A DNA stretch of 64,000 nucleotides from an uncultured Gemmatimonadales bacterium (GCA_963798085.1 CAWCRS010000009.1:233889-297888); one strand, 5' to 3'; shown: positions 5,311 to 62,097, counted from the stretch's first letter. Numbers and translations: made by a program. The notes: generated by a model from the sequence alone, not told the origin.

Positions 5311-5342
5311 CGCGCCCGGCTCGACCCGGTATCCATCGGCTC

Positions 5343-22775: not shown

Positions 22776-22822
22776 CCGGCCCCTGCGCAGCCGCCACCCA
22801 CCACCATCCAGAAGCCTGCCCG

Positions 22823-23412: not shown

Positions 23413-25074
<1,662 letters not shown>

Positions 25075-25087
25075 CCGTGACCCGACT

Positions 25088-25308: not shown

Positions 25309-25340
25309 TGTCCGACAACGCTGAAAAGGCGAGACCCCGA

Positions 25341-30271: not shown

Positions 30272-30312
30272 GCGCCGGCGGAACGCGAGTGTTCCGCCGG
30301 CGCTTTTCATTT
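30272..30312 (+). terminator. intrinsic terminator of the M50/NUDIX/AAA+ operon
   Basis: Perfect 13-bp stem GCGCCGGCGGAAC-gcgagt-GTTCCGCCGGCGC followed by TTTTCATTT, 51 nt after the stop at 30221. Confidence 0.8.
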
Positions 30313-42207: not shown

Positions 42208-45200
42208 ATGCGCGCGTACGCACGAGTTCCGGCCATGGTGCTGCTCGTCGGTTTCACTGCCAGTCTGCTCGCGCGACGGGCGAGCGCACAGACGGCGGCG
42301 CAGAACGACAGCGCGGCGGCGGCCGCGTTGAAGGCGAAGTCGCTGCCGCTGATCGCGACGCGCACGCTCGATTTCACGACGGACGAAGGTTCCTGGATCT
42401 CGCTCAATGTGTCGCGCGACGGGAACACGATCGTGTTCGAGCTGCTGGGCGATCTCTACACGCTGCCGATCGCGGGGGGCACGGCCACGCGTATTACCAG
42501 CGGACTCGCGTACGACATGCAGCCGCGCTTCTCGCCGGACGGCCGGCGCATCGTCTTCATCAGCGATCGCAATGGCGCGGAGAACGTGTGGATCGCGGAT
42601 GCGGATGGGTCGCACGCGCGTGCGCTCACGACCACCGAGCGCGACAGTTACATGTCGCCGGTCTGGACGCCGGATGGCCAGTACGTGATTGCCGCGAAGG
42701 GCGCGCAGCTGTGGCTCTACCATCACGAGCGTGGTTCCGGTCTGCAGCTCACGGGCAATCGCGGTGCCGGTGCAACCGCCGCACCCGGTGCGCCCGGACA
42801 GGCCGCACCCGCACTGCTCGGCCCCGCTTTCGGCAGTGACCCGCGCATCCTCTGGGTCAACGTGCGCGGTTCGGTTACGAGCGGCTTTGCGGCTGCGGCG
42901 CGCGAGCCGTGGGATGATGATTTCGATCCCGCCGATGCGCGCAGCTCGGCGCGCGTGGTAGGGCCGTACCAGATCGGGCAGTACGACCGCGAGAACGGGC
43001 GGCTTCGCTTGCGCACGCACGAGATGGAAGGCGCGTTCCGGCCGGTGCCCAGCCCGGATGGAAGGTGGCTGGTCTACACGACGCGCTACGATGCGCGCGA
43101 GGCGCTCAAGCTGCTCGACCTCGGCACCGGCGAGGAACGCTGGCTGGTGATGGATGTGCAGCGCAATGACAGCGACGGCGGCGGTTCGCGCGATCGCAAT
43201 GTCTACCCGGGCTCGGCGTTCACGCCCGACTCGCGCTTCCTGATCACGAGTTATGGCGGGAAGATCTGGCGCGTGGCCGTACCCACGGGTGAAGCGACGC
43301 AGATCCCGTTCAGCGCGCACGTGCAGCAGCAGATGGGAGCGCTCTCGCACTTCGAGTATCCCATCAACGATTCGGTGCTGACCGTGACGCAGATCCGCGG
43401 CGCGCGTCCCTCGCCCGATGGCCGGCGGGTGGTGTTTGCAGCGCTGGACCACCTCTGGATCGCGGACCTGCCGGCCGGCCGCGGCGGGCCGCCCGCCGAC
43501 AACGAACCGCATGCGACGATTCGCGACGCCACCCGTCTGACAGCGTCCGCGGATGTCGAGCACGCTCCCGTGTGGTCGCCGGATGGCCAGTACATCGCAT
43601 GGATCACCTGGAACGACTCCACAGGCGGCGACATCTGGCGCATGCGCGCGAGTGGCGCAGGACAGCCCGAGAAGCTGACCCGCAGTCCGGCGTTCTACGA
43701 CAGGCTCGCGTACTCGCGCGATGGCTCACGACTCATCGCGGTGCGCGGCTCGAAGATGCACCGCATGCGCACGCTCGAGGACTTCGGCAACAACGACGCT
43801 TCGGCGGAACTGGAGTACGCCTGGATGCCCGCCGGCGGCGGCGACATGCAGCGCATCGCCTGGGTGGGGAGCGGCGCGACACAGGAAGGCCGCAATGAGC
43901 CACACATCGGACCGGACTCGTCGCGCATCTATGTGTGGGCCGGCAGCGAAGGTCTCATCTCAATGCGTTACGACGGCACCGACATCCGCACGGTAGTGAA
44001 GGTGAGCGCGCCGCCGCAGCCGGGGAGCACGGGGCCCGCGCCACCGCCGGAGGAGGTGCTGCTCTCGCCCGACGGCACGCGTGCGCTGGTGTACGCCAAC
44101 CGCAATGTCTACATGATCACGGTGCCACCGGTGGCCGGTGACGCGCCGGCGGTCTCGGTGGCGGCGTCGTCTTCGGTGCCGACCTGGCGACTTACCCGCA
44201 TTGGCGGCGACTTCATTGGCTGGCGCCAGGACGGCGCCGTGGCCTACTACTCCATCGGTCGCAGCCTCTTCCTCTACGACATCGCCATGGCGGACTCGCT
44301 GCACGCCGATTCGCTGGCGCGCGCGCGCGCTGACACGGCGAGGACCCGCGCAGCCGGCGATTCGGCCGCGGCCGGCGCACGGGCACGACCGGCGTACGAG
44401 CCGCACCGTGTCAATGTCGAGATCACCGCAAGGAAGGACAAGCCCGGCGGAACGCTGGTGCTGCGCGGCGCCCGCATCATCACCATGAAGGGCGACGAGA
44501 TCATCCCGTCCGGGGACATCGTGATCCGCGACAACCGCATCGCCGCAGTGGGCGCGCGCGGCAAGGTCGCGGTGCCTGCGAACGCACGTGTTATCGACGT
44601 GAGCGGCAAGACCATAATTCCCGGCTACGTCGACATCCACGCGCACACCTGGGTGGCGTGGGGCGTGCACCGCAGCCAGGTCTCGCAGTTCATGGCGCAG
44701 CTGGCGTACGGCGTGACCACGCAGCGCGACCCGCAGACATCGTCGGAGGACATCCTCACCTACAGCGACCGCATGGAGATGGGCGAGCTGATCGGACCTC
44801 GCCTGTACTCGACCGGCCCGGGCATCTTCGCCTCGGACAACATCCACAACCTGGCGGAAGCCCGCGACGTGGTGCGCCGCTACGCGGATTATTTCAACAC
44901 GCACACGATCAAGCAGTACCTGGTGGGGGACCGCAAGGTGCGGCAGTGGGTGATCATGGCGGCGCGTGAGCTGGGACTGACACCGACCACCGAGGGCGGC
45001 TCCAACTTCACGATGAACCTCACGCTCATGCAGGACGGCTACGCCGGACTCGAGCACGCGCTGCCCATCAGCCCATTCTACAACAATGTGGTCCAGCTGG
45101 AGCGCACCAGTGGCATCACCTACACACCCACACTGATCGTGAGTTATGGCGGGCCGTGGGGCCGCGACTACTACCTCACCCGCACCAACATCGACGAGAA

Positions 45201-45675
45201 CGCGAAGCTGCACCACTTCACACCACACGATGAGCTGGACAAGTGGCAGACCGCGACGTTCAACCGCACGGACCAGTACGTCTACACGCTGCACGCGCAG
45301 CAGCTCAAGAAGGTGGTGGAAGCGGGCGGCCGCGTGGGCCTCGGCTCACACGGCGAGGTGCAGGGGATCGGCGTGCACTGGGAACTGTGGATGATCGGCT
45401 CGGGCGGCATGCGGCCGCATGATGTTCTGCGCATCGCCACACTGTACAGCGCGGACGCGATCGGCTTGAGCCGGGACATCGGTTCGCTCGAGCCCGGCAA
45501 GCTGGCGGACCTGCAGATTCTCGACGCCAACCCGCTCGACAAGCTCGAGAACAGTACGTCGATTCACTATGTGATGAAGAACGGGCGGCTGTACGAGGCC
45601 GCCACGCTGAACGAAGTCTGGCCGCGGCAGCGGGTGCTGCCCACGCAGTGGTGGTGGCGGGTGGAGCCCCGGTAG
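42208..45675 (+). CDS. secreted multidomain protein: TolB/PD40-like beta-propellers fused to a C-terminal amidohydrolase
   Basis: 1155 aa. Signal peptide MRAYARVPAMVLLVGFTASLLARRASAQ. Repeated PD40-type motifs (PRFSPDGRRIVFISDRNG, SPVWTPDGQYV, PSPDGRWLVYT, PVWSPDGQYIAW). C-terminal IIPGYVDIHAHTW (HxH) ...GSLEPGKLADLQILDANPL. Confidence 0.88.
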   Translation: MRAYARVPAMVLLVGFTASLLARRASAQTAAQNDSAAAAALKAKSLPLIATRTLDFTTDEGSWISLNVSRDGNTIVFELLGDLYTLPIAGGTATRITSGLAYDMQPRFSPDGRRIVFISDRNGAENVWIADADGSHARALTTTERDSYMSPVWTPDGQYVIAAKGAQLWLYHHERGSGLQLTGNRGAGATAAPGAPGQAAPALLGPAFGSDPRILWVNVRGSVTSGFAAAAREPWDDDFDPADARSSARVVGPYQIGQYDRENGRLRLRTHEMEGAFRPVPSPDGRWLVYTTRYDAREALKLLDLGTGEERWLVMDVQRNDSDGGGSRDRNVYPGSAFTPDSRFLITSYGGKIWRVAVPTGEATQIPFSAHVQQQMGALSHFEYPINDSVLTVTQIRGARPSPDGRRVVFAALDHLWIADLPAGRGGPPADNEPHATIRDATRLTASADVEHAPVWSPDGQYIAWITWNDSTGGDIWRMRASGAGQPEKLTRSPAFYDRLAYSRDGSRLIAVRGSKMHRMRTLEDFGNNDASAELEYAWMPAGGGDMQRIAWVGSGATQEGRNEPHIGPDSSRIYVWAGSEGLISMRYDGTDIRTVVKVSAPPQPGSTGPAPPPEEVLLSPDGTRALVYANRNVYMITVPPVAGDAPAVSVAASSSVPTWRLTRIGGDFIGWRQDGAVAYYSIGRSLFLYDIAMADSLHADSLARARADTARTRAAGDSAAAGARARPAYEPHRVNVEITARKDKPGGTLVLRGARIITMKGDEIIPSGDIVIRDNRIAAVGARGKVAVPANARVIDVSGKTIIPGYVDIHAHTWVAWGVHRSQVSQFMAQLAYGVTTQRDPQTSSEDILTYSDRMEMGELIGPRLYSTGPGIFASDNIHNLAEARDVVRRYADYFNTHTIKQYLVGDRKVRQWVIMAARELGLTPTTEGGSNFTMNLTLMQDGYAGLEHALPISPFYNNVVQLERTSGITYTPTLIVSYGGPWGRDYYLTRTNIDENAKLHHFTPHDELDKWQTATFNRTDQYVYTLHAQQLKKVVEAGGRVGLGSHGEVQGIGVHWELWMIGSGGMRPHDVLRIATLYSADAIGLSRDIGSLEPGKLADLQILDANPLDKLENSTSIHYVMKNGRLYEAATLNEVWPRQRVLPTQWWWRVEPR

Positions 45676-45936
45676 CCGGACCGTCTTGGCGTTCTTGGGT
45701 TAGGCCTGATCAGACATGCGACCCGGCCTCAAGCCTTCCCGCCTGCCATGCCCGCGGCGCGGCCAGCCATGGAGATCGGGGGTCCAGGCGGTAGAATTAC
45801 GCGTCCACGCACAATGCTCCGGCACGAAAGTGCTGCACATCCGGGCTGCGACGCGTGGAATCGCTCGTTCGCAGGCGTTCTTGAGGCACAGGCATGGGAG
45901 CAGCGGCCACAACCCAAGAACGCCAAGACGGTCCGG
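45676..45936. repeat. MITE-like element (family B) with perfect 26-bp terminal inverted repeats
   Basis: CCGGACCGTCTTGGCGTTCTTGGGTT at 45676-45701 is the exact reverse complement of 45911-45936. It starts at the base after the TAG of the plus-strand gene and ends 4 nt before the TGA of the minus-strand gene. A second, shorter copy is at 60817-60950. Confidence 0.75.
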
Positions 45937-45940
45937 AACC

Positions 45941-46351
45941 TCAGCGCGACACGCCAAAGGTGCCGCGCACACCCACCCCGTTGCTCCACTCGCCCTGCAC
46001 TCTTCCGCCGTTGACCTCGCCGTCCAGCAGCCACTCGTCGCCGCCCGTGCGCTTGAGCCGCAGGTGCACCCGACCATTCGCTGCCGACCCCGTCAGCTCG
46101 CCGCCTGACTGCTCTACGCTCGCCCGGCTACCTACCCTCTTGGACAGGATGAGCCGGTAGTTGCCGCTGACCTGCCCGTTCGCGTCGATCAGCGTGAGGG
46201 TGAGCGCGCCACCATCATAGGCCGGGTGACTCAGCGTGCCCTGCCAGGTCCCGCTCACGTCCGGCTCCGTCTCCGGACCGCTCATGTCCTTGCACGCACC
46301 AGTCACCGCCACCGCCAGCACCAGCATCCACAGATTCCGTCGCGCCCGCAT
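45941..46351 (-). CDS. hypothetical small secreted/lipoprotein
   Basis: 136 aa. MRARRNLWMLVLAVAVTGACKD signal with a Cys, then a beta-rich body (GTWQGTLSHP...GQVSGNYRLIL...). I recognise no family. Confidence 0.6.
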   Translation of the reverse strand: MRARRNLWMLVLAVAVTGACKDMSGPETEPDVSGTWQGTLSHPAYDGGALTLTLIDANGQVSGNYRLILSKRVGSRASVEQSGGELTGSAANGRVHLRLKRTGGDEWLLDGEVNGGRVQGEWSNGVGVRGTFGVSR

Positions 46352-46603
46352 CGGTCGGCTCCTTCGAGAGTAGTCTCAGCGTCTTCTACTCAGAAGGGCG
46401 ACAGAACCCGGGCTCCACCCTCATCGCGGGCAGATCGCGGTGTCCGTGACCGACCGACGGACGGCCAGGAACGGGCGACCGCGTACGCCGGACCCTCCTC
46501 CGCCAGCCTGGCCTCCGCGGCTGCCCGGCCAACTGCTGCCACCGGAAAAGCCGAGTCGCGCTCACTCGTCCCGTGGAACGCAGCCACGCGCTCGTCCAGT
46601 TGT

Positions 46604-46622
46604 CTATAACATAGTGTTATAG
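46604..46622. promoter_or_regulatory. AT-rich perfect palindrome CTATAACA-tag-TGTTATAG (operator-like)
   Basis: 8-bp perfect arms with a 3-nt centre, about 250 nt upstream of the 46351 start on the minus strand. The half-site TAACA/TGTTA resembles the TGACA/TGTyA palindromes in the three repeats at 46693-46897. Confidence 0.45.
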
Positions 46623-46692
46623 GGAGACCGTTCGCGCAACCACGCGGAGATCTCCGCCGGCCGCATTCAGTCCAGGCGAGGACGCCTGCACC

Positions 46693-46897
46693 GGCACTTC
46701 TGACATCGTGTTACAAGCGGGACACGCGCACACGCAACCAGGCAGAGGTCGCCTCACAACGTTCGCGGCAATCCCCAGCCGGTCATCCTGCCGGCACTTC
46801 TGACATCGTGTCATAAGCAGGGAACGTGCACACGCAACCAGGCGGAGACCCAGGCACTTCTGACATCGTGTTACAGGTGCCGCGCACGCACACACAC
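46693..46897. repeat. three direct copies of a ~51-bp unit, each carrying a TGACA-N3-TGTyA palindrome and a (CA/CG)n tract
   Basis: Copy 1 at 46693-46743: ggcacttctgacatcgtgttacaagcgggacacgcgcacacgcaaccaggc. Copy 2 at 46793-46843: ggcacttctgacatcgtgtcataagcagggaacgtgcacacgcaaccaggc. Copy 3 at 46853-46897: ggcacttctgacatcgtgttacaggtgccgcgcacgcacacacac. Start-to-start spacing is 100 and 60 bp. Confidence 0.8.
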
Positions 46898-47130
46898 TAC
46901 TGCCCGATTTCTGGTGGTTCCGTGATTGGGGCAGCGCGTCCTTGACGCAGTCAGCGATTCCTTGCCGCCTTGCCCGGCGCGCGCAGCGCACTCGGCGGTG
47001 AAGCCACCGCAGGGAGGAGCCGGTGGAGGATAGCATCGGCCGGGGCGTGGACGGCGGCGGGCAGCGGCAGGGAGATCGCATCAACGAAGGCGTTGGGTTC
47101 GCGCAGGCGGAGGCTCAGCACGTCGCCCGA

Positions 47131-47682
47131 TCACGAATAGCTCATGAACTTCGACCACGGGGACAGGTAGCCCAGGTTGAGGAGGCCATTCTGGCGCAGC
47201 TCCAGGCGGCTGCGGGCCCGCAGCAGGGCAGCCGTGGCGGCACTGAGCCCCGCGAGATCGAGACCAATGCCGGAAAGACTGAAATCGTGGCCGATGAATT
47301 TGCTGAGTATGTGCCCGCTGATGGACACGCCCAGGAGCACGACGCCGAGCCGAAGGTGCGAGCGCTGCGGCGTCGGGCCGGCATCGAGGAGGAGGGCACC
47401 GGACCCGAGGCGGCGGCGTCGCCATTGCACCAGGTCGCGGGCCTCCAGGACGGCTGCGGCCAAACCGAGCGCGGCACCGAAGCGCTGCAGTACGCCGGGG
47501 GTGATCGTATGGTGGCGGGCCAGCAGGATCCCCGCGAGTACGGCGACGCTGGGCAGCAGCAAGGTCAAGCCCAGGACGACTCTGGCTCGTTTGTTGACGC
47601 GGCGCCAGACGCCTCGCAGAGAAAACGCGAGAGCGCCCGCCATTGCTACCGCCGCAAGCAGCATTACACCCATGTTGTGCAC
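47131..47682 (-). CDS. hypothetical membrane protein
   Basis: 183 aa with four hydrophobic segments (MGVMLLAAVAMAGALAF, VVLGLTLLLPSVAVLAGILL, GAALGLAAAVL, LGVVLLGVSISG) and a soluble tail. I recognise no family. Confidence 0.55.
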   Translation of the reverse strand: MHNMGVMLLAAVAMAGALAFSLRGVWRRVNKRARVVLGLTLLLPSVAVLAGILLARHHTITPGVLQRFGAALGLAAAVLEARDLVQWRRRRLGSGALLLDAGPTPQRSHLRLGVVLLGVSISGHILSKFIGHDFSLSGIGLDLAGLSAATAALLRARSRLELRQNGLLNLGYLSPWSKFMSYS

Positions 47683-47839
47683 CCCGGGGGAACAACCATG
47701 CCTGCCTGACTCGACGGGCAGCGAGTGTGTCCTTCCCGAAGCCGGGGAGCGAACGGGCCGTGGCCCGGCTGAAACGGACGGCGGGACCCGGCCGTAATGG
47801 CGGGTCAGTTCCCCGGACCCGCTCAGACGACGAGGCTCG

Positions 47840-50258
47840 ATGAACGCGCTGCTGAAGGACCTGCGCTACGGTGCGCGCATGATCCGCAAGACGCCGGGCG
47901 CATCGCTCATCGCGGTCATTGCGCTGGCGCTGGGCATCGGCCTGACCACGCTGATGTTCAGCATCGTGTACGGCGCGCTCATCCGGGGCCTGCCCTTCGA
48001 GCACAGTGAACGCCTGGTCAACATCAACCGCGTGCGCAAGGATCGCGGCAACGTGGGCATTTTCGCGCCCGACTTCGCCGACTGGAGCGCACAGCAGCGC
48101 TCCTTCGAGGAGCTGGGCGCCTACGCCGGCACATCCATCACGCTGTCGAGCGGCGACGCGCCGCGGCGCGTGAGAGGCGCGTACGTGTCAGCCAGCCTGT
48201 TCCGCGTGCTGCGCGTGCATCCACTGATGGGTCGCGTGTTCACGGATGAAGACGACCGGTCCGGCTCACCTGACATGCTGATCATCGGCTACGACGTGTG
48301 GCAGAGTGATTTCGCCGGCGATCCCGGCATCATCGGCAGGTCCGTGCGCATGAACGGCATCGATGCCGTGATCGTCGGCGTCATGCCGCGCGGTTTCGGC
48401 TTCCCCGACACGCAGAGCGCGTGGGTGCCATTGCGCCTGGATCCGGCGCGGACGGAGCGGGGCAGGGGCATGTCGGTGGGCGTCGTGGGCCGGCTGCGGG
48501 CCGCGGTGAGCATGGCGCAGGCGACGGCGGACATGGAGGCCATCGCGCAGCGCCAGGCGAGCGCGTATCCGGTCACGAACCAGGACATCACCGTCAGACT
48601 GCAGACCTCGCAGCAGGCGAGACTGGGCCGGGACGAGCGCACCGTGCTCTACACGATGCTGGGCGCCGTGCTGTTCGTGCTGCTCATTGCCTGCGCCAAT
48701 GTGGCGAATCTGCTGATCGGCAGGGCCATGGTGCGCACGCGCGAGATCGGCGTGCGCACCGCGCTGGGCGCATTCGAAACTGCGTGTGATGAGCCAGTTC
48801 CTCACGGAATCGCTGGCGCTGGCCATCGCCGGTGCCGCCATCGGTGTGGTGATCGCGGCGGTCGGCATCCGCGCGTTCAATGGCGCGATTGCAGGCGTCA
48901 ATCCACCGTTCTGGCTGAAGATCGCGCTGGACACGCCGTCACTGCTCTGTGCCAGCGCCGCCACGGTGCTGGCCACGCTGGCGGCGGGCTCCATTCCCGC
49001 CGTGCAGGCGGCCACCGCGAACACGCACGACATCCTGAAGGATGAGTCGCGCGGCAGCTCGAGCTTCAGACTGGGCAACCTGAGCCGCGTCCTGGTGATG
49101 GCGGAAATGGCGCTGTCGGTCGGGCTGCTCGTAGGTGCCGGCCTCATGATCAAGAGCGTGGTCAAACTGGAAACAATCGATCTCGGCTTCGACGCAAGGC
49201 ACACGCTGAATGCACGCATGATCATGTCCGACACCATCTACAACGACCGCGAGCGCCGCCTGCGCCTGGCCACGGACCTGCTGACACGCGTGTCAGCAAT
49301 GCCGGGTGTCACCGCGGCCACGCTCACCACGTCCGCGCCGGGCATGGGTGGCGGCAGCAACCTCTTCGCACTGGAGGGCGTCACCTACGCCACCGATCGC
49401 GACTACCCGTCGGCGCCCGGCGCCACTATCGCGCCCGGGTTCTTCGCCACGCTGGGCTTCAGGGTCATCGGTGGCCGCGAATTCACGGCGGACGATCGCG
49501 ACGGCACGCTGCCCGTTGTGGTCGTCAATCAGTCGTTCGAGCGACGCTGGTTCCCGGGGCAGAGCGCGCTGGGCAAGCGCCTGCGCTTCGGCACCAACAT
49601 CGCCGGCAACCCGAACCCGTGGATGACGATCGTGGGCGTGGTCCCCGATCTCTATGTCACTGCCGTGGACGAACAGGTGCACGAAGGTCTGTACCGGCCG
49701 ATTGCGCAGGCGGGCCCGCGCGGCCTCACGGTGCTGGCACTGACGCGCGCGAAGCCGGCATCGCTCGTGAATGCGCTGCGCGGCGTCGTCGCCGATGTGG
49801 ATCCCAACCTGGCGCTGGATCAGCTGGGTTCGCTCGAGGAAGTCATCCAGCAGGAGAACTGGTACTACGCCGTGTTCGGTGCGCTGTTCGTCGCGTTCGG
49901 CGGCGCTGCTCTCTTCCTTGCCTCGATCGGGCTGTACGGCGTCATGTCGTTCGCCGTGAGCCGGCGGCGGCGCGAGATGGGTGTGCGCATGGCCGTGGGT
50001 GCGGACGCGCGCGACGTGGTGCGCCTGGTCCTGCGACAGGGCATGACACAAACCGCCATCGGCCTCATTGTGGGAACCGCTTTTGCGCTTTTCGTGTCGA
50101 AACTGCTGGCGGCCATCCTCTTCCAGGTGCAGCCCCGCGATCCGGTGATCTTCGCGTCCATCATTGCAGTACTGCTGCTCACCGCCGTGCTGGCGTGCTG
50201 GATCCCGGCCCTGCGCGCGGCCCGCGTGGACCCCCTGGAAGCTCTGCGCTACGAGTAG
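47840..50258 (+). pseudogene. ADOP-type duplicated FtsX/MacB-like ABC permease, frame broken near 48773
   Basis: ORF 47840..49045 (MNALLKDLRYGARMIRKTPGASLIAVIALALGIGLTT...ACANVANLLIGRAMVRTREIGVRTALGA) continues as SKLRVMSQFLTESLALAIAG... in ORF 48786..50258, ending LEALRYE. One extra base lies in gca t tcg. Confidence 0.85.
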
Positions 50259-50404: not shown

Positions 50405-51124
50405 ATGCTGAGCATCCGCGAGGTGTCACGCATCCTGGACGTGTCCGAGCGCACGGTGCAGCGCTGGATCCGCTCCGGTGATCTGCCCGCCAGCCGGCAG
50501 CGCGAACAGGCACTGATCAATCCCGTCGACCTGCTGGAGTGGGCTTCCGCGCGGGGCGTCGAGCTGTCGCCCGAGCTGAGCCAGCAGTGGGCCGTGCCCG
50601 AGCTGCCCTCGCTCTACGACGCCCTTGCGGCAGGCGGCATTCACACGGACGTACCGGGGCACAGCAAGGACACGGTGCTGCGCGCCGTGGCCCGGCGCCT
50701 GCCGCTGCGCAACGAGGACGAGAAGGAGTTCGTGCTGCAGGGCATGCTGGCCCGCGAAGCGCTCGGTTCCACTGCGATCGGCGGCGGTGTCGCCATTCCC
50801 CACGTGCGCAACCCCATCATCCTGCACGTCACCCGACCCGCCGTGATGCTATCGTTCCTGGAGAACGAGATCGATTTCGGCGCCCTGGATGGGCAGCCGG
50901 TCACGGTCCTGTTCACAGTCGTCAGTCCCACCGTGCGCCTGCACCTGCACCTGCTGTCGCGCCTCGGTTTCGTGCTGCACGATGCCGATGTGCGGCGGTT
51001 GCTGGGTGAGCGTGCCTCACCCGCCGCCGTGCTGGAACGCGTGCGCTGTGTGGAGGCGGCACTGCCCGGCCGGGATGGACTGGACGGCCACGTCTCCACC
51101 AACGGGCCGGCACAGGCGAGCTAA
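50405..51124 (+). CDS. HTH (excisionase/MerR-like) plus PTS EIIA(Ntr/fructose-type) domain protein
   Basis: ATG at 50405. MLSIREVSRILDVSERTVQRWIRSGDLPA (helix-turn-helix). EIIA_2 domain with STAIGGGVAIPHVR (phospho-His region) and VTVLFTVVSP. The stop TAA overlaps the next ATG as TAATG. Confidence 0.8.
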   Translation: MLSIREVSRILDVSERTVQRWIRSGDLPASRQREQALINPVDLLEWASARGVELSPELSQQWAVPELPSLYDALAAGGIHTDVPGHSKDTVLRAVARRLPLRNEDEKEFVLQGMLAREALGSTAIGGGVAIPHVRNPIILHVTRPAVMLSFLENEIDFGALDGQPVTVLFTVVSPTVRLHLHLLSRLGFVLHDADVRRLLGERASPAAVLERVRCVEAALPGRDGLDGHVSTNGPAQAS

Positions 51125-53094
51125 TGCTGCTGGCGGGCGCGTTCCTGGCACTCCTGCTGGGCGCGGTCCTCTCGCTGGTCTTCGGCCGTGATGCGCTGAC
51201 CCGCGCCCGACTGGGCGTGGCCGGCGCCGTCACTGCATCGCTGCTGGGTCTGGCCGCCTGCCTGCCCCCGCTCATCTCTGCCGGCGCCGTGGTCTACCAC
51301 GTTGCGTGGTCCGTGCCCCGTGGCTCCTTCACGCTGGTGCTCGATCCCCTGGCGGCGTTCTTCCTGCTGATCACGTTCCTGCTGACACCCCTGACCGCGT
51401 GGTACGGCGGGCGCTACCTGCGCGAGCAGGCGCACGCACCGCGCGCCACGTGGTTCTTCTGGAACCTGCTGATCGCGGCGATTGCGCTGGTGCTGCTGGC
51501 GGGTAACGCAGTGTTATTCCTGGTCGCATGGGAAGTGATGACCATCGCCTCCTTCTTCCTGGTCACGACGGAGGATGAGCGGCTCGAGGTGCGACGCGCG
51601 GGCTGGATCTACCTGATCGCCGCGCACATTGGCACGGCCTTCCTGATGGTGTTCTTCCTGCTGGCCGGCGGCAGCGCGGGTTCGCTCGATTTCGCGGCGC
51701 TCGGCGGCCACGCGCTGGTGGCGCCGGGTCTGCTGTTCGCACTGGCGCTGGTGGGTTTCGGCGCCAAGGCCGGACTCGTGCCCCTGCACGTGTGGCTGCC
51801 CGAAGCGCACCCGGCGGCGCCCAGTCACGTGTCCGCCCTGATGTCGGGTGTGCTGATTGCGACCGGCATGTACGGTATTCTGCGCGCCCTCGTGCTGGCC
51901 GGCCCGCTGGCGCCCGCATGGGGACCGGCCCTGATCGTGATCGGCGCACTGAGCGGACTGGTGGGCGTGGTGTTCGCGCTCGCGCAGGATGACATGAAGC
52001 GCGCTCTCGCATACTCGAGTGTCGAGAACATGGGGATTGCGCTGCTCGGCATCGGCGCGGGCGTGACCGGACTGAGCCGCGGCTCGCCCGTGCTGGCCGA
52101 GATCGGCTTCGGCGCTGCCCTGCTGCACGTGCTGAATCATGCGTGCTTCAAGGGACTGCTGTTCCTGGGCGCGGGCGCAGTGCGCCAGGCAACGGGCCAG
52201 ACGGGAATCGACCGGCTGGGTGGCCTGCTGCGACGCATGCCGCGCACCGGCCTCGCCTTTCTCGTGGGGTGCGCTGCCATCACGGGCCTGCCGCCGCTCA
52301 ATGGCTTCAGCAGCGAATTCCTCACGTTCCTCGCGGGACTGCGCATCGTCCGCGACATGCCGCCGGGCACGCGCTGGGCCGGCATCATCCTGGTGTGCGC
52401 GCTGGCCGCGGTGAGCGGCCTGGCCGTGGCACTGTTCGCGAAGTTGTTCGGCAGCGCATTCCTGGGCACGCCGCGCAGCGCGGCTGCGGCGCAGGCGCGC
52501 GAGGCGCACGTCGATCTGCGCACGCCGCTGCTCATCCTGGCAGCCGCGTGTGTGCTGCTGGGTCTCTTCCCGATCGTGGGCGTGCGTGCCGCGGCCGGTG
52601 CGGTGGGGCGGCTGGCGGGGCGGCCGCTCGATACCCGGACAGCCACACTGCTGCTCAGTACGCGGCTGCTGGGTAACGCCGTGTTGGGACTGAGCGCTCT
52701 GCTCGCACTGTGCGCCGGCCTGCGCTGGTCGCTCGTGCGACGACGCGAACGTCAGATCTCCGTCACCTGGGGCTGCGGTTATGCCGGGACGGTGGAACGC
52801 GCGCAGTACAGCGCATCATCGCTGGTGGCACCACTGGTCGCGTTCCTGGGCGGGGTGCTGCCCAGTGAGACGACAAGGGTGGCGCCGCCCCACGGCCTGT
52901 TCCCGGACACGGCAACGCTGCATGCGGGCGCCGCCGACGTATTCACGCAGCGCATGTACGGTCCCTCCTTCCAGTGGCTGAGCCGCTCCTTCCGCAGGCT
53001 GCGCATCGTGCAGCACGGCCGCCTGCACTGGTACCTGCTGTACGTGTTCCTCACGCTGCTGCTCATGCTGCTGATCGAGTTCGGCCAATGGTGA
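51124..53094 (+). CDS. HyfB-like (NuoL/Mrp antiporter-like) membrane subunit
   Basis: 656 aa, polytopic. Contains the proton-pump family motifs WEVMTIASFFLV, GFGAKAGLVPLHVWLPEAHPAAPSHVSALMSGV, LAYSSVENMG and HACFKGLLFLGAG. Confidence 0.9.
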   Translation: MLLAGAFLALLLGAVLSLVFGRDALTRARLGVAGAVTASLLGLAACLPPLISAGAVVYHVAWSVPRGSFTLVLDPLAAFFLLITFLLTPLTAWYGGRYLREQAHAPRATWFFWNLLIAAIALVLLAGNAVLFLVAWEVMTIASFFLVTTEDERLEVRRAGWIYLIAAHIGTAFLMVFFLLAGGSAGSLDFAALGGHALVAPGLLFALALVGFGAKAGLVPLHVWLPEAHPAAPSHVSALMSGVLIATGMYGILRALVLAGPLAPAWGPALIVIGALSGLVGVVFALAQDDMKRALAYSSVENMGIALLGIGAGVTGLSRGSPVLAEIGFGAALLHVLNHACFKGLLFLGAGAVRQATGQTGIDRLGGLLRRMPRTGLAFLVGCAAITGLPPLNGFSSEFLTFLAGLRIVRDMPPGTRWAGIILVCALAAVSGLAVALFAKLFGSAFLGTPRSAAAAQAREAHVDLRTPLLILAAACVLLGLFPIVGVRAAAGAVGRLAGRPLDTRTATLLLSTRLLGNAVLGLSALLALCAGLRWSLVRRRERQISVTWGCGYAGTVERAQYSASSLVAPLVAFLGGVLPSETTRVAPPHGLFPDTATLHAGAADVFTQRMYGPSFQWLSRSFRRLRIVQHGRLHWYLLYVFLTLLLMLLIEFGQW

Positions 53095-53998
53095 TCCGCA
53101 GCCTGCTGCCGCCGCTGCTGGGCCTGGCCGGCGCGCCCCTGCTGCTTGGCACGATCAACAAGCTGAAGGCCGCGTTCGTGGGCCGCACGGGCGCACCCCT
53201 GACACAGCCGTATCACGACCTGGCCCGCCTGCTGCGCAAAAATCTGGTGTACAGCAGCACGACGACGTGGCTGTTCCGCGCGCTTCCCGCAGTCTCGCTT
53301 GCGGCCGGCGTGGCTGTCGTGCTGCTCCTGCCGGCACTGGGACAGCGCCCGCCGTTTTCCTTCCCTGCCGACTTCCTGGTTCTGGCCGGTGCCCTGGCGC
53401 TGAGTCGCGCGAGCACGGTGTTAGCGGCGCTGGACACGGGATCGAGTTTCGAGGGCATGGGCGCCAGCCGCGAGCTGTTCATCGCCGCCCTGGCCGAGCC
53501 GGCGTTCTTCCTGGTGCTGCTGGTGCTGGTGACCCGGAGCGGGGAGCTGTCATGGCGGGCATGCTGGGTCCGGCGCTGACCGCGCACGGGTCAGGCGAGG
53601 CTGCCGCTCTGCTGCTGGCGGGCGGGGCCTTGCTGCTGCTGCTGCTCGCCGAGAACTCGCGTGTGCCGGTCGATGATCCGACGACGCATCTCGAGCTGAC
53701 CATGATTCACGAAGTCATGGTACTGGACCATGCCGGGCCCGATCTGGCGTTCATCCTGTACGGCGCCATGCTCAAGTTGTGGCTGTTCGCGGCGCTGCTG
53801 GTCGATCTCGCGCTTCCGGTGGGCGGCCTGCCCGCGCTGCCTGGCGCGCTGCTCTTCCTGGCGGGCATGGCGCTCAGCGCGCTGCTGGTGGCGCTGGTGG
53901 AGTCGAGCATGGCACGACTGCGGCTGGCGCGCGTGCCCCAGCTCCTGATCGCGGCATCCGTGCTGGCCGCGTTCTCCCTCCTGCTATCGGCGAGTTAG
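53088..53998 (+). pseudogene. HyfC/HycD-like (NuoH-like) membrane subunit, frame broken near 53551
   Basis: MVIRSLLPPLLGLAGAPLLLGTINKLKAAFVGRTGAPLTQPYHDLARLLRK... (ORF 52974..53579) continues as MAGMLGPALT...LLAENSRVPVDDPTTHLELTMIHEVMVLDHAGPDLA... (ORF 53267..53998). The junction GELS / MAGML needs a 1-nt shift. The ATG at 53088 overlaps the hyfB-like stop. Confidence 0.85.
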
Positions 53999-53999
53999 C

Positions 54000-54644
54000 A
54001 TGCAGCCGCTGCTGGAGACCCTGCTCATCGGCATTGTGCTGGTGAACCTGTCCATCCTGGGGTCGAGCCGGCTGGCCGGCTGCATCCGGCTGGTGGCGGT
54101 GCAGGGGGTGCTGGCCGGGCTGCTGCCCGCACTGCTGGGCACCACCGCGAGCGGCGCACGCGCCTTTGTCATGGTCGTGGTGGCCATGGGCGTGAAGGGG
54201 TTTCTGATGCCGTGGCTGCTGACGCGCGCGATCCGCGAAGCCAACGTACGCCGCGAGGTGGAGCCGTTCGTCGGTTTCAGCGCGTCCGTCGTGCTGGGAG
54301 CGCTGCTCACCGCCGCCGGGTTCGCGCTGGCCGCGCAGCTGCCACACCAGGGACCGGTGCAGGCGCCGCTCCTGGTGCCGGTGGCGTTCGCCACGCTGCT
54401 GAATGGCGCGCTGCTGATGGTGACACGGCGCAAGGCGATCATGCAGGTGCTGGGTTACCTGGTGCTGGAGAACGGCATCTTCCTGTTCGGCCAGAGCCTG
54501 GCGACGGAACTGCCCACACCCGTCGAGCTGGGCATCCTGCTCGACCTGCTGGTGGGCGTGTTCGTGATGGGCATCGCCATCTTCCGCATCAACCGCGAGT
54601 TCGACAGCACGGCCGTGCACCACCTGGCGGAGCTGAAGGACTGA
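54000..54644 (+). CDS. HyfE-like small membrane subunit
   Basis: 214 aa with 7 hydrophobic helices. Contains KGFLMPWLL and MQVLGYLVLENGIFLFG, typical of hydrogenase-4 component E homologues. Starts 2 nt after the previous stop. Confidence 0.8.
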   Translation: MQPLLETLLIGIVLVNLSILGSSRLAGCIRLVAVQGVLAGLLPALLGTTASGARAFVMVVVAMGVKGFLMPWLLTRAIREANVRREVEPFVGFSASVVLGALLTAAGFALAAQLPHQGPVQAPLLVPVAFATLLNGALLMVTRRKAIMQVLGYLVLENGIFLFGQSLATELPTPVELGILLDLLVGVFVMGIAIFRINREFDSTAVHHLAELKD

Positions 54645-57611: not shown

Positions 57612-57619
57612 ATGCGGAA

Positions 57620-57727
57620 TGCGTTGGAGTTGCTGAGGCTGGGGCTGGGGCTCGGGCTGGGGACGAATTGAAATGCGTTGCCTGGGGGCTGGTTGCTGGG
57701 GCTGGTTGCTCGGGAACGGCAGCAACG
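57620..57727. repeat. family A GC-rich repeat block (left boundary of the intra-operon spacer)
   Basis: The sequence gcgttggagttgctgaggctggggctggggctcgggctggggacgaattgaaatgcgttgcctgggggctggttgctggggctggttgctcgggaacggcagcaacgg shares its modules and the GAATTGAA linker with 25110-25185. Confidence 0.75.
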
Positions 57728-58337: not shown

Positions 58338-58462
58338 TCCCAGCCCCGGTCCCGAGGTCAGCCCCGGCCCCGGCGCCAGTGCCAGCCCCAGCCCGGGGCA
58401 GGCCGTCCAGTCCGTCTTGCCATACCCGGGCAACCAGCCCCGGCAACGAGTTCCAGCAACGA
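58338..58462. repeat. family A GC-rich repeat block, inverted (right boundary of the intra-operon spacer)
   Basis: ...cccagccccggtcccgaggtcagccccggccccggcgccagtgccagccccagcccgggg...cccgggcaaccagccccggcaacgagttccagcaacgac. Its reverse complement, gttgctggaactcgttgccggggctggttgcccggg, is nearly identical to 25091-25126. Confidence 0.75.
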
Positions 58463-59796: not shown

Positions 59797-60615
59797 ATGC
59801 CGCTCTTCATGGACCGTCACGATATTCGCAATGCAACGGCCGAGGCTGTTGCCGCGGCGCACCAGCGGGATCTCATCGTCCAGGCGAGCCATGCGTGCAA
59901 AGCTCTCACCTACTGGTTCGATGAGGACCGCGGGACGGCTTTCTGCCTCATTGAAGGACCTACCGAAGCAGCCGTTCGTGCCATGCACCGCGAAGCGCAC
60001 GGCCTCATTCCCAACGTCGTCGTGGAAGTCGATCCCGCGGCTGTTGCCGGCTTCCTGGGACGCGTCACTGATCCCAATGACGCAGTGGCGAACCCGATCC
60101 GCGAGGCAGGGTTCCGGGCACTGATGTTCACCGACATGGTGAACTCCACACTGATCACGAACACACTCGGCGACGACAGGGCACAATCGGTTCTGGCGAA
60201 GCACAATGAGATTGTGCGGAGGACGCTGCTGAGCCACGGCGGGCGCGAAATCGACCGGGCCGGTGACGGCTTCCTGATATCCTTTTCGTCCGCCGCGCAA
60301 GCCGTGGCGTGTGCCGTGTCAATGCAGCGTGCGTTCCAGGACTACAATGCCGATGCCGCCCGTCCCGCCGACATCCAGGTGCGCATTGCGCTGGGGGCGG
60401 GCGAACCGATCGCCGACGGAGAATCGCTGTTTGGTTCCGTGGTCAACCTGACCGCGCGCATCTGCGCTCACGCTGGCGCGGGCGAGATCCTGGCTACACG
60501 CGTCGTCCGCGATCTCTGCACCGGCAAGCCGTTCACCTTCCTGCCAGCCGGCGCTCTGGAACTCAAGGGTTTCGCCGATCCGATCGAAGTGCACCGCGTC
60601 GACTGGACCGCCTGA
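59797..60615 (+). CDS. DUF4242-like N-terminal domain fused to a class III adenylate/guanylate cyclase catalytic domain
   Basis: N-terminal MPLFMDRHDI...AHQRDL..Q...CKALTYWFDEDRGTAFCLIEGPTEAAVRAMHREAHGL (SCO4226-like). Cyclase domain RALMFTDMVNST...REIDRAGDGFLISFSSAAQAVACAVSMQ...IRIALGAGEP...GSVVNLTARI...LKGF.DPIEVHRV. Confidence 0.8.
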   Translation: MPLFMDRHDIRNATAEAVAAAHQRDLIVQASHACKALTYWFDEDRGTAFCLIEGPTEAAVRAMHREAHGLIPNVVVEVDPAAVAGFLGRVTDPNDAVANPIREAGFRALMFTDMVNSTLITNTLGDDRAQSVLAKHNEIVRRTLLSHGGREIDRAGDGFLISFSSAAQAVACAVSMQRAFQDYNADAARPADIQVRIALGAGEPIADGESLFGSVVNLTARICAHAGAGEILATRVVRDLCTGKPFTFLPAGALELKGFADPIEVHRVDWTA

Positions 60616-60816: not shown

Positions 60817-60950
60817 CCGGACCGTCCTGGCATTCTCGCGTTCCGGCCGCGTGCGCTATCGAAGCATGCGGCTTCGCGCCGCAAACGGCGTGTTACAGGA
60901 CACACGCATGGCGGTACCGGCCACAACCCAAGATTTCAAAGACGGTCCGG
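60817..60950. repeat. second, shorter and degenerate copy of MITE-like family B
   Basis: The left end ccggaccgtcctggcattctcgcgtt resembles the left end at 45676. The right end ggccacaacccaagatttcaaagacggtccgg (to 60950) matches 45905-45936 at about 80% over ~50 nt. As in the first copy, it ends 4 nt before the TGA of a minus-strand gene (modC). Confidence 0.6.
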
Positions 60951-60954
60951 CGAT

Positions 60955-62097
60955 TCAGTCGAGGAGCGCCACGCTCTTGACGCGTGCGTACACGTCCAGG
61001 CCCGCGGTGATGCCGAGGCGCTGGCAGGAGTGGCGGGTGATGAGAGCGAGCAGGCCGGGTTCGCGGCTGGCGCCGGTCATGCGCACCAGGACTTCGCCGG
61101 GTAAGGTCTCGCGCAGCTCGGCGACGCGCACCGAGAACTGATTCATGATCGTCGTGAGGGGCTCCGTCGCGAGACTGAGCGACACGTCGCTGGCTTCGAT
61201 CTGGAGGCGGACGCGGCGGCCCGGCTCCCGCTGCTGCCGGCGCACCCAGACGGGACCCCACGGGCCGTCCAGCAGGGTGAGCGCGTTTGCCTCGTCGTGT
61301 TCGCGCACCACCGCGTCCACGACGACCGCCGCCTGGTCTCCCCGCGCCTGCGCGAAGTCCAGCTGTCCGATCACGGAGCCCGTCGGACCGGCAGCACGCA
61401 CGCGTCCATCGACCAGCCAGATCATGTGATCCGCGAGCCGGCCCACCTCGGCCAGCGCATGACTGACATAAATGATGGGAATGGACAATCGCTCCGGCAG
61501 CCGCTGCAGGTAGGGCAGTATCTCGAGGCGGCTGCTTTCATCGGTTGCGGAGAGCGGCTCATCCATGAGCAGCAGCCGCGGGCTCGCGAGCAGGGCACGC
61601 GTGATGGCCACACGCTGGCGTTCGCCACCGGAAAGCCCGGCGGGAGAACGCGACAGCAGCGGCTCGACTCCGAGCCATTCCACCGCATCATCCCAGGCTA
61701 TGCAATGCGCGGGCGCGCGGCGCCACGCGTAACGCAGATTGCCCCGCACGTCGAGGTGCGCGAACAGGTCGGCTTCCTGGAAGACGTAACCCACCGAGCG
61801 GCGGTGCGCGGGCAGAAAGCGGTTGTCCTCGGTATCCTGCCACACCTCGTCGCCGACTCGGAGGAACCCATCCGCGACGCGTTCCAGGCCCGCGATGCAG
61901 CGCAGCAGTGTGGTTTTGCCCGCGCCCGACGGTCCAAACAATCCGGTTACACCACGCGCCGGACAACCCAGTGTCGCATCCAGCTCGAAGCGACCTCTCG
62001 CCAGACGGAATCTCGCCTCGAGACCGCTGCGGCCGGCCGCGCCGCCATCGGGCGAGGACGAAGACGTGACGGGCATCGTCGCCTGATCCCCACTCAC
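60955..62097 (-). CDS. modC: molybdate ABC transporter ATP-binding protein with C-terminal TOBE/Mop domain
   Basis: Walker A GPSGAGKTT, signature LSGGERQRVAITRAL, Walker B LLLMDEPLSATD. The C-terminal ~130 aa are TOBE-like. The start overlaps the modB stop. Confidence 0.9.
   Translation of the reverse strand: MSGDQATMPVTSSSSPDGGAAGRSGLEARFRLARGRFELDATLGCPARGVTGLFGPSGAGKTTLLRCIAGLERVADGFLRVGDEVWQDTEDNRFLPAHRRSVGYVFQEADLFAHLDVRGNLRYAWRRAPAHCIAWDDAVEWLGVEPLLSRSPAGLSGGERQRVAITRALLASPRLLLMDEPLSATDESSRLEILPYLQRLPERLSIPIIYVSHALAEVGRLADHMIWLVDGRVRAAGPTGSVIGQLDFAQARGDQAAVVVDAVVREHDEANALTLLDGPWGPVWVRRQQREPGRRVRLQIEASDVSLSLATEPLTTIMNQFSVRVAELRETLPGEVLVRMTGASREPGLLALITRHSCQRLGITAGLDVYARVKSVALLD

What the first reader, a model, noticed from the sequence alone, without database searches (positions are those of the whole stretch)
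45676..45936. MITE-like element with perfect 26-bp terminal inverted repeats wedged exactly between two convergent stop codons, with a second copy in the same context
CCGGACCGTCTTGGCGTTCTTGGGTT (45676-45701) is the exact reverse complement of 45911-45936. The 261-bp element begins at the nucleotide after the TAG of the 1155-aa gene and ends 4 nt before the TGA of the minus-strand lipoprotein gene.

A shorter, diverged copy (60817-60950) again ends 4 nt before the TGA of a minus-strand gene (modC), in a convergent gap.

This is either a transposon-derived element that targets gene 3' ends or a family of very long bidirectional terminator structures. The identical 4-nt offset at the two right ends is striking.
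Basis: seen in the sequence. Interest (0 to 1): 0.55.

Follow-up and report, generated by a model that had tools for sequence, protein, structure and literature searches.

The report
Small palindromic repeat element, two copies
Two diverged copies of a small non-coding, hairpin-forming repeat with inverted ends sit just past gene stop codons in an uncultured Gemmatimonadota genome; this is a new family of a well-known kind of bacterial "junk" repeat (MITE-like), not a new kind of system.

Summary
There is a perfect 26-nt inverted repeat (45676-45701 / 45911-45936), and the 261-nt element fills a convergent gap, 0 nt after a TAG and 4 nt before a TGA. A shorter, decayed copy (60817-60950) also ends 4 nt before a minus-strand TGA (modC). 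The two copies share the terminal repeat and a ~64-nt half-unit. The outermost 10 nt (CCGGACCGTC) are identical at all four ends.

The abutting genes end at their native C-termini. Relatives' modC and lipoprotein loci have gaps of 12-163 nt without the element, though none is a strict syntenic empty site. That fits insertion of a small, non-coding, terminal-inverted-repeat element of the MITE / ERIC / Correia kind.

Not shown:
- mobility;
- a target-site duplication (only an ambiguous CCGG);
- an autonomous partner;
- genome-wide copy number: the source contig could not be retrieved, and scans of 185,579 genomes and 241 million metagenome records gave only chance hits.

It is not a canonical terminator. 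There is no T-tract on either side, and this genome's ordinary post-gene hairpins have 13-14-bp stems, at least two with T-rich tails. The window also holds other, unrelated long palindromic repeat families.

Verdict: real feature, new member of a known kind, modest interest.

The parts
45676..45936 (.). Copy 1 (C1). A 261-nt imperfect palindrome that fills the convergent gap between the amidohydrolase gene and the lipoprotein-like gene.
   Evidence: RNA MFE is -138.9 kcal/mol on the + strand (z -6.3) and -144.8 on the - strand. The self reverse-complement alignment is 65% identical over the whole length.
45676..45701 (+). Left terminal inverted repeat of C1: CCGGACCGTCTTGGCGTTCTTGGGTT. It contains an internal near-tandem CGTCTTGG / CGTTCTTGG.
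   Evidence: read directly from the sequence.
45911..45936 (-). Right terminal inverted repeat of C1, the exact reverse complement of the left one.
45873..45936 (-). Conserved ~64-nt half-unit of C1 (terminal repeat plus GTGGCCGC...CATGCC...). It is the part most similar to copy 2, and it abuts the minus-strand gene.
   Evidence: Blastn gives 78% identity over 64 nt. The nhmmer profile built from the four half-units finds it.
45770..45797 (+). Sigma-70-like promoter consensus match inside C1 (TGGAGA-16-TAGAAT). This is a consensus match only.
   Evidence: 1 site found against 0.1 expected.
60817..60950 (.). Copy 2 (C2). A 134-nt decayed copy made of two half-units without the ~130-nt centre seen in C1.
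   Evidence: MFE is -60.6 on the + strand and -72.0 on the - strand.
60817..60842 (+). Left terminal repeat of C2: CCGGACCGTCCTGGCATTCTCGCGTT (22/26 identical to C1).
60925..60950 (-). Right terminal repeat of C2: CCGGACCGTCTTTGAAATCTTGGGTT on the - strand (22/26 identical to C1).
42208..45675 (+). Flanking gene: 1155-aa Tricorn/PD40 beta-propeller plus amidohydrolase protein. Its TAG stop directly precedes C1.
   Evidence: The C-terminus ...WWWRVEPR lies within the natural range of orthologues.
45941..46351 (-). Flanking gene: conserved 136-aa lipoprotein-like hypothetical protein. Its stop lies 4 nt from C1.
59797..60615 (+). Flanking gene of C2: SCO4226-like plus adenylate/guanylate cyclase domain protein. 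Its stop is 201 nt from C2.
60955..62097 (-). Flanking gene of C2: ModC-like molybdate ABC transporter ATPase. Its stop lies 4 nt from C2.
   Evidence: The last 13 residues (VYARVKSVALLD) are identical to those of the L007 orthologue.

Best explanation
C1 and C2 are two diverged members of a family of small, non-coding, terminal-inverted-repeat palindromic elements. They are of the MITE type, the same general kind as ERIC, Correia/NEMIS, RUP or Coxiella QMITE. The host is an uncultured Gemmatimonadota (Longimicrobiales-like) chromosome.

Shown here:
- Both copies are built from the same ~64-nt half-unit in inverted orientation. C1 has an extra ~130-nt centre.
- The outermost 10 nt are identical at all four ends, while the inner terminal repeat has decayed in C2.
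- Both copies lie just beyond the native stop codons of unrelated genes, in convergent gaps.

Inferred:
- Each copy arose by insertion, mobilised in trans by a transposase encoded elsewhere that recognises the CCGGACCGTC... ends. The target may have been a CCGG tetranucleotide.
- The copies survived because the first nucleotides after a stop codon in a tightly packed convergent gap are among the few neutral sites.
- Because the C1 gap holds nothing else, both convergent transcripts must run into the element. They would then form a very stable hairpin, with a 26-bp perfect outer stem of about -54 kcal/mol on its own.
- That hairpin most plausibly acts as a 3'-end structure: a barrier to 3'-to-5' exonucleases, an RNase III substrate, or a road-block to read-through. 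Comparable effects on transcripts are documented for Correia and ERIC elements. It does not look like a canonical Rho-independent terminator.
For: - The perfect 26-nt terminal repeat is far beyond chance.
- The two copies are homologous at unrelated loci.
- The terminal 10 nt are invariant at 4/4 ends, while all 8 differences fall in positions 11-26 (p = 0.014).
- Size (134-261 nt), lack of room for a transposase, intergenic position and a highly stable stem-loop transcript all match the structural definition of prokaryotic MITEs in PMC10969869 and PMC2229807.
- The abutting genes keep native C-termini.
- Relatives' modC and lipoprotein genes are followed by gaps of 15, 41, 12, 55 and 163 nt. 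The four whose DNA could be read (41, 12, 55 and 163 nt) contain no such sequence, and the 15-nt gap is too short for a 134-nt element.
- Placement within 4 nt of a stop is non-random.
- The window contains other, unrelated long palindromic repeat families, so this genome tolerates and propagates such elements.
Against: - No flanking target-site duplication exists outside the element. The only candidate common to both copies is CCGG, which cannot be told apart from the outer 4 nt of the terminal repeat.
- Only two copies were seen.
- No transposase or integrase domain was found in any called gene scanned; the nuo-like genes at 50405-57636 were not scanned.
- No IS with similar ends turned up in the plasmid collection, in 185,579 species-representative genomes, in 241 million metagenome records or in viral contigs.
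- The element is not AT-rich: GC is 0.64-0.66 against 0.68 for the window.
- The whole element, not just its ends, is palindromic. That is not expected of a simple internal-deletion derivative of an IS.
- None of the relatives' loci is a strict syntenic empty site, because their neighbouring genes differ.
Confidence: 0.6

Rival explanations
1. The element belongs to a single-strand-transposed or otherwise TSD-less palindromic repeat family. It would be REP/REPIN-like and mobilised by a RAYT, or a palindrome-associated element of the IS200/IS605 type. It would insert as a hairpin without duplicating the target, at a preferred position just after stop codons.
For: There is no target-site duplication. 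The element is palindromic along its whole length and is built from two inverted half-units, like a REPIN doublet. It is strictly extragenic and sits at gene 3' ends. Several unrelated palindromic families coexist in the window.
Against: By inspection of the sequence, the 26-nt terminal unit is not itself an imperfect palindrome as REPs are. At 64 nt the half-unit is much longer than a REP (20-40 nt; PMC2817692 abstract). No Y1/RAYT domain was found in the window. The left flanks share no conserved tetra- or pentanucleotide of the kind IS200/IS605 elements require. Copy number is unknown, whereas REPs usually exceed 100 per genome.
Confidence: 0.15
2. The element is a host-selected structural module, either a very long bidirectional terminator or a convergent-gene insulator. 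It would have been copied between loci by recombination and would be maintained for its RNA hairpin rather than by transposition.
For: C1 is the only sequence in its convergent gap, so it is the only candidate 3'-end signal for both genes. The hairpin is extremely stable on both strands. Both copies have the same orientation and the same 4-nt offset relative to the abutting gene. G-U wobble asymmetry leans toward the strand of the abutting gene (C1 4:3, C2 7:2, unrelated E25 9:3; pooled 20:8). In relative L006, long hairpins directly follow many stop codons.
Against: There is no T-tract after the stem on either strand, with 0-3 T in the first 10 nt. Ordinary post-gene hairpins in the same window have 13-14-bp stems, and two of them have T-rich tails. 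In C2 the outer stem has decayed to 20/26 by non-compensated mismatches, so the pairing is not being maintained. Only the terminal 10 nt are conserved, which looks more like a protein recognition site than like selection on a stem.
Confidence: 0.15
3. The feature is an assembly or sequencing artefact, such as a fold-back chimera, in a metagenome-assembled contig.
For: The lon gene in the same window is broken over at least four reading frames, which could reflect indel errors in the assembly.
Against: Two independent, diverged copies exist 15 kb apart. The interior of each is an imperfect palindrome, not a perfect one. The flanking genes are intact with native ends. Fold-back artefacts are typically long, perfect and at contig ends; this last point rests on general knowledge and was not tested here.
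Confidence: 0.03

Closest known systems
Prokaryotic MITEs in general (as defined in PMC10969869 and PMC2229807)
   Same: The length is under 500 bp and the terminal inverted repeats fall within the 4-30 bp range. There is no room for a transposase. The location is intergenic, the transcript folds into a long stable stem-loop, and the copies vary in size.
   Different: There is no unambiguous target-site duplication. The element is not AT-rich and sits in GC-rich DNA. No parent IS is known. Only two copies could be seen.
Correia / NEMIS elements of Neisseria
   Same: Both have terminal repeats of similar length (24 contiguous bp per PMC2229807) and come in size variants that differ by an internal segment. 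Correia elements are co-transcribed with neighbouring genes, have an internal sigma-70-like promoter, and their hairpin RNA is cut by RNase III (PMC10969869, PMC2649163). C1 has a promoter-like match and a 26-bp perfect duplex that would be long enough for RNase III; the RNase III point is an inference.
   Different: No sequence similarity was found. There are no 5'-TA-3' termini and no TA duplication. The phylum is different. The review places Correia elements predominantly immediately upstream of genes, whereas these copies hug stop codons.
ERIC (enterobacterial repetitive intergenic consensus)
   Same: ERIC is an imperfect palindrome of about 127 bp along its whole length, close to C2's 134 nt. 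It lies in transcribed intergenic regions, including gene 3' ends. Its effect on mRNA stability depends on orientation (PMC2229807, PMC10969869).
   Different: ERIC has only about 7 bp of contiguous terminal pairing and TA termini. It shows no sequence similarity to this element, and nothing matched in Rfam.
REP / BIME / REPIN elements with RAYT transposases
   Same: These are extragenic palindromic repeats, often just after stop codons, without target duplications. REPINs are inverted doublets that form one hairpin. The documented roles of REPs as mRNA 3'-end stabilisers are cited from general knowledge, not tested here.
   Different: The unit here is 64 nt and is not itself palindromic. No RAYT was found in the window. 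High copy number is unverified.
Bidirectional intrinsic terminators of convergent genes
   Same: In both cases a single hairpin is shared by two convergent genes and fills the gap between them.
   Different: Flanking A and U tracts are absent. The stem is 5-10 times longer than those of the ordinary post-gene hairpins in this window.

Membership tests
Prokaryotic MITE | Total length typically under 500 bp and no transposase gene | tested here: met
   The copies are 261 nt and 134 nt. Only meaningless short ORFs overlap them.
Prokaryotic MITE | Terminal inverted repeats of about 4-30 bp | tested here: met
   C1 has 26/26 complementary positions. C2 has 20/26, with the outer 10 nt perfect.
Prokaryotic MITE | Flanking direct repeats (target-site duplication), at least in young copies | tested here: inconclusive
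   No duplication lies outside the delimited ends. CCGG fits both copies only if the outer 4 nt of the terminal repeat are counted as target.
Prokaryotic MITE | Multiple dispersed copies in the genome | tested here: inconclusive
   Two copies lie 15 kb apart in 64 kb. The rest of the 345,868-bp source contig was not retrievable. External scans gave only chance hits.
Prokaryotic MITE | Transcript forms a thermodynamically stable stem-loop | tested here: met
   C1 folds at -138.9 / -144.8 kcal/mol (z -5.5 to -7.0). C2 folds at -60.6 / -72.0 (z -3.0 to -4.8).
Prokaryotic MITE | AT-rich and inserted in AT-rich intergenic DNA (typical, not obligatory) | tested here: not met
   Element GC is 0.66 and 0.64 against a window GC of 0.68.
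Prokaryotic MITE | Mobilised in trans by an IS with matching ends, or presence/absence polymorphism as proof of mobility | tested here: inconclusive
   No transposase was found in the window. No matching ends turned up in plasmids or in the large collections. Relatives lack the element but are only 62-80% identical in protein, and synteny is not preserved.
REP / REPIN (RAYT-associated) | Basic unit is a short (about 20-40 nt) imperfect palindrome | tested here: not met
   The 26-nt terminal unit has no usable self-complementarity (read from the sequence). The shared unit is about 64 nt.
REP / REPIN (RAYT-associated) | A RAYT (Y1 transposase) gene flanked by the repeats, and more than 100 copies per genome | not testable with these tools
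   The window has none, and the whole genome is unavailable.
Correia / NEMIS | 5'-TA-3' termini with a TA target duplication, in Neisseria | tested here: not met
   The ends are CCGG...CCGG, the flanks are TAG|...|AACC and CCGC|...|CGAT, and the host is Gemmatimonadota.
Canonical (bidirectional) intrinsic terminator | GC-rich hairpin followed by a U-tract on the transcribed strand, or on both strands if bidirectional | tested here: not met
   The first 10 nt downstream contain 1 and 1 T for C1 and 3 and 0 T for C2. The terminator scan finds nothing at either element.
Integron attC site | Outer core sites RYYYAAC / GTTRRRY, an intI gene, and arrays of co-oriented cassettes | tested here: not met
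   The outer ends are CCGGACCGTC. A GTTAGGC motif occurs only internally and on the wrong side. The neighbours are convergent housekeeping-type genes with no integrase.
Any Rfam RNA family | Match at the gathering score | tested here: not met
   There are 0 matches in the whole window.

The most novel reading that the evidence does not exclude
The element could be a 3'-end-homing mobile hairpin. On this reading, the family inserts in a fixed orientation and at a fixed 4-nt offset past the stop codon of a gene, perhaps at CCGG. It would then supply tightly packed convergent gene pairs with a shared RNA 3'-end structure, effectively a mobile replacement for terminators.

It might be one instance of a wider Gemmatimonadota habit of placing long hairpins directly after stop codons. 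Some of those hairpins have arms built from tandem 7-9-nt units, as seen in E25 in this window and in several sites in relative L006.
Probability: 0.12. Interest if true: 0.55.

Novelty: new member of a known kind. Interest (0 to 1): 0.3.

Why it matters
If confirmed genome-wide, this would be one of the first MITE-like families described in Gemmatimonadota. My one literature search on this returned no paper describing MITEs in the phylum.

It would also be a clean example of such elements surviving in the few neutral nucleotides between convergent stop codons. In that position they necessarily become part of both 3' UTRs and can affect mRNA stability or read-through.

Practically, such repeats are useful strain-typing markers. 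They are also a source of assembly breaks and mis-annotation in MAGs. The finding does not point to a new mechanism.

Tried and rejected
1. Genome-wide and cross-species copies. The degenerate terminal-repeat pattern CCGGACCGTCNTNGNNNTCTNGNGTT gave 2 hits in genome contigs, 2 in metagenome contigs and 0 in viral contigs. All four hits sit in coding-like DNA without a partner arm. My own arithmetic, assuming equal base frequencies, puts the chance expectation for 19 fixed bases in the 596-Gb genome collection at about 4, so I rejected the hits as chance.

2. Retrieving the source contig. Exact-protein look-ups for the window's own proteins failed, and P0001 carries no name or accession.

3. Strict syntenic empty site. 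Relatives' amidohydrolase genes have different downstream neighbours. L008's convergent neighbour is an SMC-like gene, not the amidohydrolase. Only looser evidence was obtained: native C-termini and short, unoccupied gaps.

4. Autonomous partner.
- No transposase domain was found in the window.
- The IS5-type IS in relative L006 has unrelated ends.
- Plasmid searches with the whole element and with the 46-nt end gave nothing, or only hits at E about 9.

5. Known RNA family: Rfam gave 0 hits.

6. Canonical terminator: rejected for lack of T-tracts.

7. Integron attC, retron ncRNA, and IS200/IS605 or OMEGA-RNA ends. I considered these and rejected them on anatomy and context: wrong end motifs, and no integrase, RT or TnpB nearby.

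8. Relationship to the other big palindromes in the window (E22, E25): no sequence similarity.

9. Wobble-pair asymmetry as evidence for RNA-level selection: only suggestive, at 20:8 pooled and including an unrelated element.

Full report
**1. Observation**

Arms 45676-45701 and 45911-45936 are perfect reverse complements of 26 nt, separated by 209 nt. None of 100 dinucleotide-preserving shuffles contains the 26-mer within 3 mismatches. A composition-based estimate gives about 1.3e-7 such perfect pairs within 400 nt in a 64-kb window of this GC content.

The + ORF 42208-45675 (1155 aa, Tricorn/PD40 propeller plus amidohydrolase) ends with TAG at 45673-45675, so the element starts at the very next base. 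The - ORF 45941-46351 has its stop at 45941-45943, which leaves the four bases AACC. That 136-aa ORF is a genuine gene. It has six homologues of 129-138 aa at 62-64% identity, and all of them end at the same position (...F.VSR*).

The second copy, 60817-60950, has arms that are 76% complementary over 33 nt. It ends four bases (CGAT) before the stop of ORF 60955-62097, a ModC-like ABC ATPase with a TOBE domain. Its gap is convergent with a cyclase-domain gene that ends at 60615.

**2. Anatomy**

The two copies are homologous. The right-hand 64 nt are 78% identical (E about 6e-9) and the terminal repeats are 22/26 identical. All four half-elements align to one ~64-nt unit made of the terminal repeat, then NN-GGCC, then a CATGC-containing stretch. 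A profile built from them finds exactly these four sites in the window and nothing else.
- C2 is two half-units back to back.
- C1 carries an extra ~130-nt centre that is itself partly palindromic.
- The outermost 10 nt, CCGGACCGTC, are identical at all four ends. All eight differences between the copies fall in positions 11-26 (p = 0.014).
- In C2 the two arms have diverged from each other by uncompensated mismatches (20/26). Pairing of the outer stem is therefore not being maintained, whereas the extreme termini are conserved.

Both copies fold into very stable hairpins on either strand. C1 gives -138.9 / -144.8 kcal/mol and C2 gives -60.6 / -72.0, with z from -3.0 to -7.0. They fold somewhat better as minus-strand RNA, which is the transcript of the abutting gene. 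No T-tract follows the stem on either strand, and the terminator scan finds nothing at either site. A sigma-70-like consensus match (TGGAGA-16-TAGAAT) lies inside C1. Rfam has no match anywhere in the window.

**3. Context and origin**

The window has about 68% GC and comes from a Gemmatimonadota, Longimicrobiales-like, genome. The window's own proteins reappear as P0001, P0121 and P0241 on a single 345,868-bp contig. The next-best hits are only 62-80% identical, and those that carry a source name are mostly called Longimicrobiales or Gemmatimonadota. The source contig could not be retrieved.

The genes next to both copies end at native positions:
- The amidohydrolase C-terminus ...WWWRVEPR lies at the short end of a naturally variable tail, and P0023 ends identically.
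- ModC ends ...VYARVKSVALLD, exactly as in the L007 orthologue.
- The lipoprotein-like protein ends where its homologues do.

In relatives the equivalent gene ends are followed by short, ordinary gaps:
- 15 nt and 41 nt after modC.
- 12 nt, 55 nt, and 163 nt with a plain 17-bp hairpin after the lipoprotein homologues.

The DNA of the 15-nt gap was not available. None of the other four gaps, nor anything else in the fetched relatives' loci (L005-L010, about 56 kb), resembles the element. These are not strict empty sites, because the neighbouring genes differ. They do show that tight convergent packing is normal in this lineage and that the element is an addition. Without the element, the C1 gap would be 4 nt, or 8 nt if CCGG was the target.

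**4. Is it a transposon-type element?**

The structural criteria for prokaryotic MITEs in PMC10969869 and PMC2229807 are a length under 500 bp, terminal inverted repeats of 4-30 bp, no transposase, an intergenic position, and a stable stem-loop transcript. All of these are met.

The evidence for mobility itself is missing:
- A systematic scan that allowed the boundaries to shift found no flanking direct repeat common to both copies except CCGG. That is the palindromic outer 4 nt of the terminal repeat and is therefore ambiguous.
- No transposase, integrase or Y1 domain occurs in any called gene scanned; the nuo-like genes at 50405-57636 were not scanned.
- The plasmid collection has no IS with similar ends.
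- The IS5-type IS in relative L006 has unrelated ends.
- A degenerate pattern covering all four observed ends gave only isolated hits inside coding-like DNA. It was run against 185,579 species-representative genomes, 241 million metagenome records and 2.9 million viral contigs.

So the family, as far as can be seen, is confined to this unsampled lineage, and its copy number is unknown.

**5. Placement**

Under uniform insertion into the window's pre-insertion intergenic space (12.6 kb, 36 gene 3' ends), the chance that an insertion point lies 0-4 nt from a stop is 1.4%, or 2e-4 for both copies. Restricting the null model to convergent gaps gives 7.7% and 6e-3. In addition, both copies have the better-conserved half toward the abutting minus-strand gene and the same 4-nt offset.

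With two copies this is suggestive of either targeting or strong survivorship at gene 3' ends. It is not proof of homing.

**6. Terminator reading**

Ordinary post-gene hairpins in this window have 13-14-bp GC-rich stems. At least two have T-rich tails: 30272-30303 is followed by TTTTCATTTC, and 18581-18550 on the minus strand by TTCGTATTTC. C1 and C2 are 5-10 times longer and lack T-tracts, so they are not canonical terminators.

Because C1 is the only sequence between its two genes, its hairpin must nevertheless be part of both transcripts. A role as a 3'-end protective structure, as an RNase III substrate, or as a road-block is plausible. Correia elements show RNase III cleavage at their terminal repeats, and ERIC elements show orientation-dependent effects on mRNA stability (PMC10969869, PMC2229807, PMC2649163).

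G-U wobble asymmetry leans toward the strand of the abutting gene. The counts are C1 4:3 and C2 7:2, and the unrelated element E25 gives 9:3. This is too weak to carry weight.

**7. Wider picture**

The window contains other large palindromic repeats that are unrelated in sequence to C1 and C2.
- E22 (22465-22776) has an MFE of -215 kcal/mol.
- E25 (25084-25312) has arms made of GTTGCTG / GCAACCA heptamers plus (GCTGGG)5. Its modules recur at 10905-11005, 57630-57720 and 58340-58460.

In relative L006, long hairpins directly follow several stop codons. Several of them have arms built from tandem 7-9-nt units, and one family is present twice. The C1 terminal repeat itself contains a near-tandem CGTCTTGG / CGTTCTTGG. 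Long post-stop palindromic repeats may therefore be a recurrent feature of some Gemmatimonadota genomes. L005 and L007 show none, so it is not universal.

**8. Verdict**

The feature is real and accurately described. It is best read as a new family of a known kind of element: a small palindromic repeat with terminal inverted repeats, of the MITE / ERIC / Correia type. It sits in 3' intergenic space.
- Mobility by a transposase and a fixed 3'-end target preference are inferred, not shown.
- A canonical-terminator role is not supported.
- The decisive test, counting and aligning all copies in the complete source genome and its reads, could not be run here.

Interest is modest (0.3). The most novel reading that the evidence does not exclude is a 3'-end-homing mobile hairpin that stands in for terminators, at about 0.12 probability.

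Noticed in passing
window 25084-25312 (also 10905-11005, 57630-57720, 58340-58460): This is a second repeat family, unrelated to C1/C2, built from GCTGGG hexamers and GTTGCTG/GCAACCA heptamers. At 25.1 kb, two inverted halves form a ~230-nt hairpin between urocanase (hutU-like, 23494-25074) and an amidohydrolase gene on the same strand. At 57.6/58.4 kb, inverted halves lie about 620 nt apart, and the left one overlaps the stop codon at 57634-57636.
   Followed up: partly
window 22465-22776: A 312-nt imperfect palindrome has arms of 59-69 nt at 81-85% complementarity and an MFE of about -215 kcal/mol. It lies in a 1.3-kb divergent gap between a signal peptidase gene and the urocanase gene. It is unrelated in sequence to the other elements, and no Pfam hit was found for the ORFs that overlap it.
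   Followed up: partly
window 18606-21180, minus strand: The Lon protease gene is split over at least four reading frames. LON_substr_bdg is in 19477-21180, AAA in 19394-19984, Lon_lid plus the first half of Lon_C in 18760-19461, and the second half of Lon_C in 18606-18995. This is either a pseudogene or indel errors in the assembly, so it bears on assembly quality.
   Followed up: partly
L006 13452-13548, 15198-15283, 22879-22962, 2142-2253, 2631-2755: In a Gemmatimonadota relative (62% GC), long hairpins start at or just after the stop codons of several genes. Several have arms made of tandem 7- or 9-nt units (AATATCC, CGCAGAGAA, TCTCACT). The one at 13452-13548 starts at the stop of the amidohydrolase orthologue. 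Two sites are copies of one family with the core CTGCCACGGATTGAT, and one of those is followed by a T-run.
   Followed up: partly
L006 5229-5267 and 6622-6639, flanking an IS at about 5300-6622: An IS5-type insertion sequence (DUF772 + DDE_Tnp_1, terminal repeats TCTAGCAGGTTGCGGAAAAAGTC) appears to have inserted inside a hairpin whose arms are GATTGCA heptamer arrays, splitting the two arms about 1.35 kb apart.
   Followed up: no
window 63615-63687: A 24-nt tandem repeat (GCGGCCACCGCCACCCTCACCTCT, 3.0 copies, 97% matches) lies upstream of the modA-like ORF region at the right end of the window.
   Followed up: no
window 46352-48785: About 2.4 kb next to the lipoprotein-like gene has only weakly supported ORFs (46617-47084, 47081-48004 and 47131-47682, all on the minus strand) with no Pfam match. 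A 19-bp-stem hairpin lies at 48313-48380.
   Followed up: no
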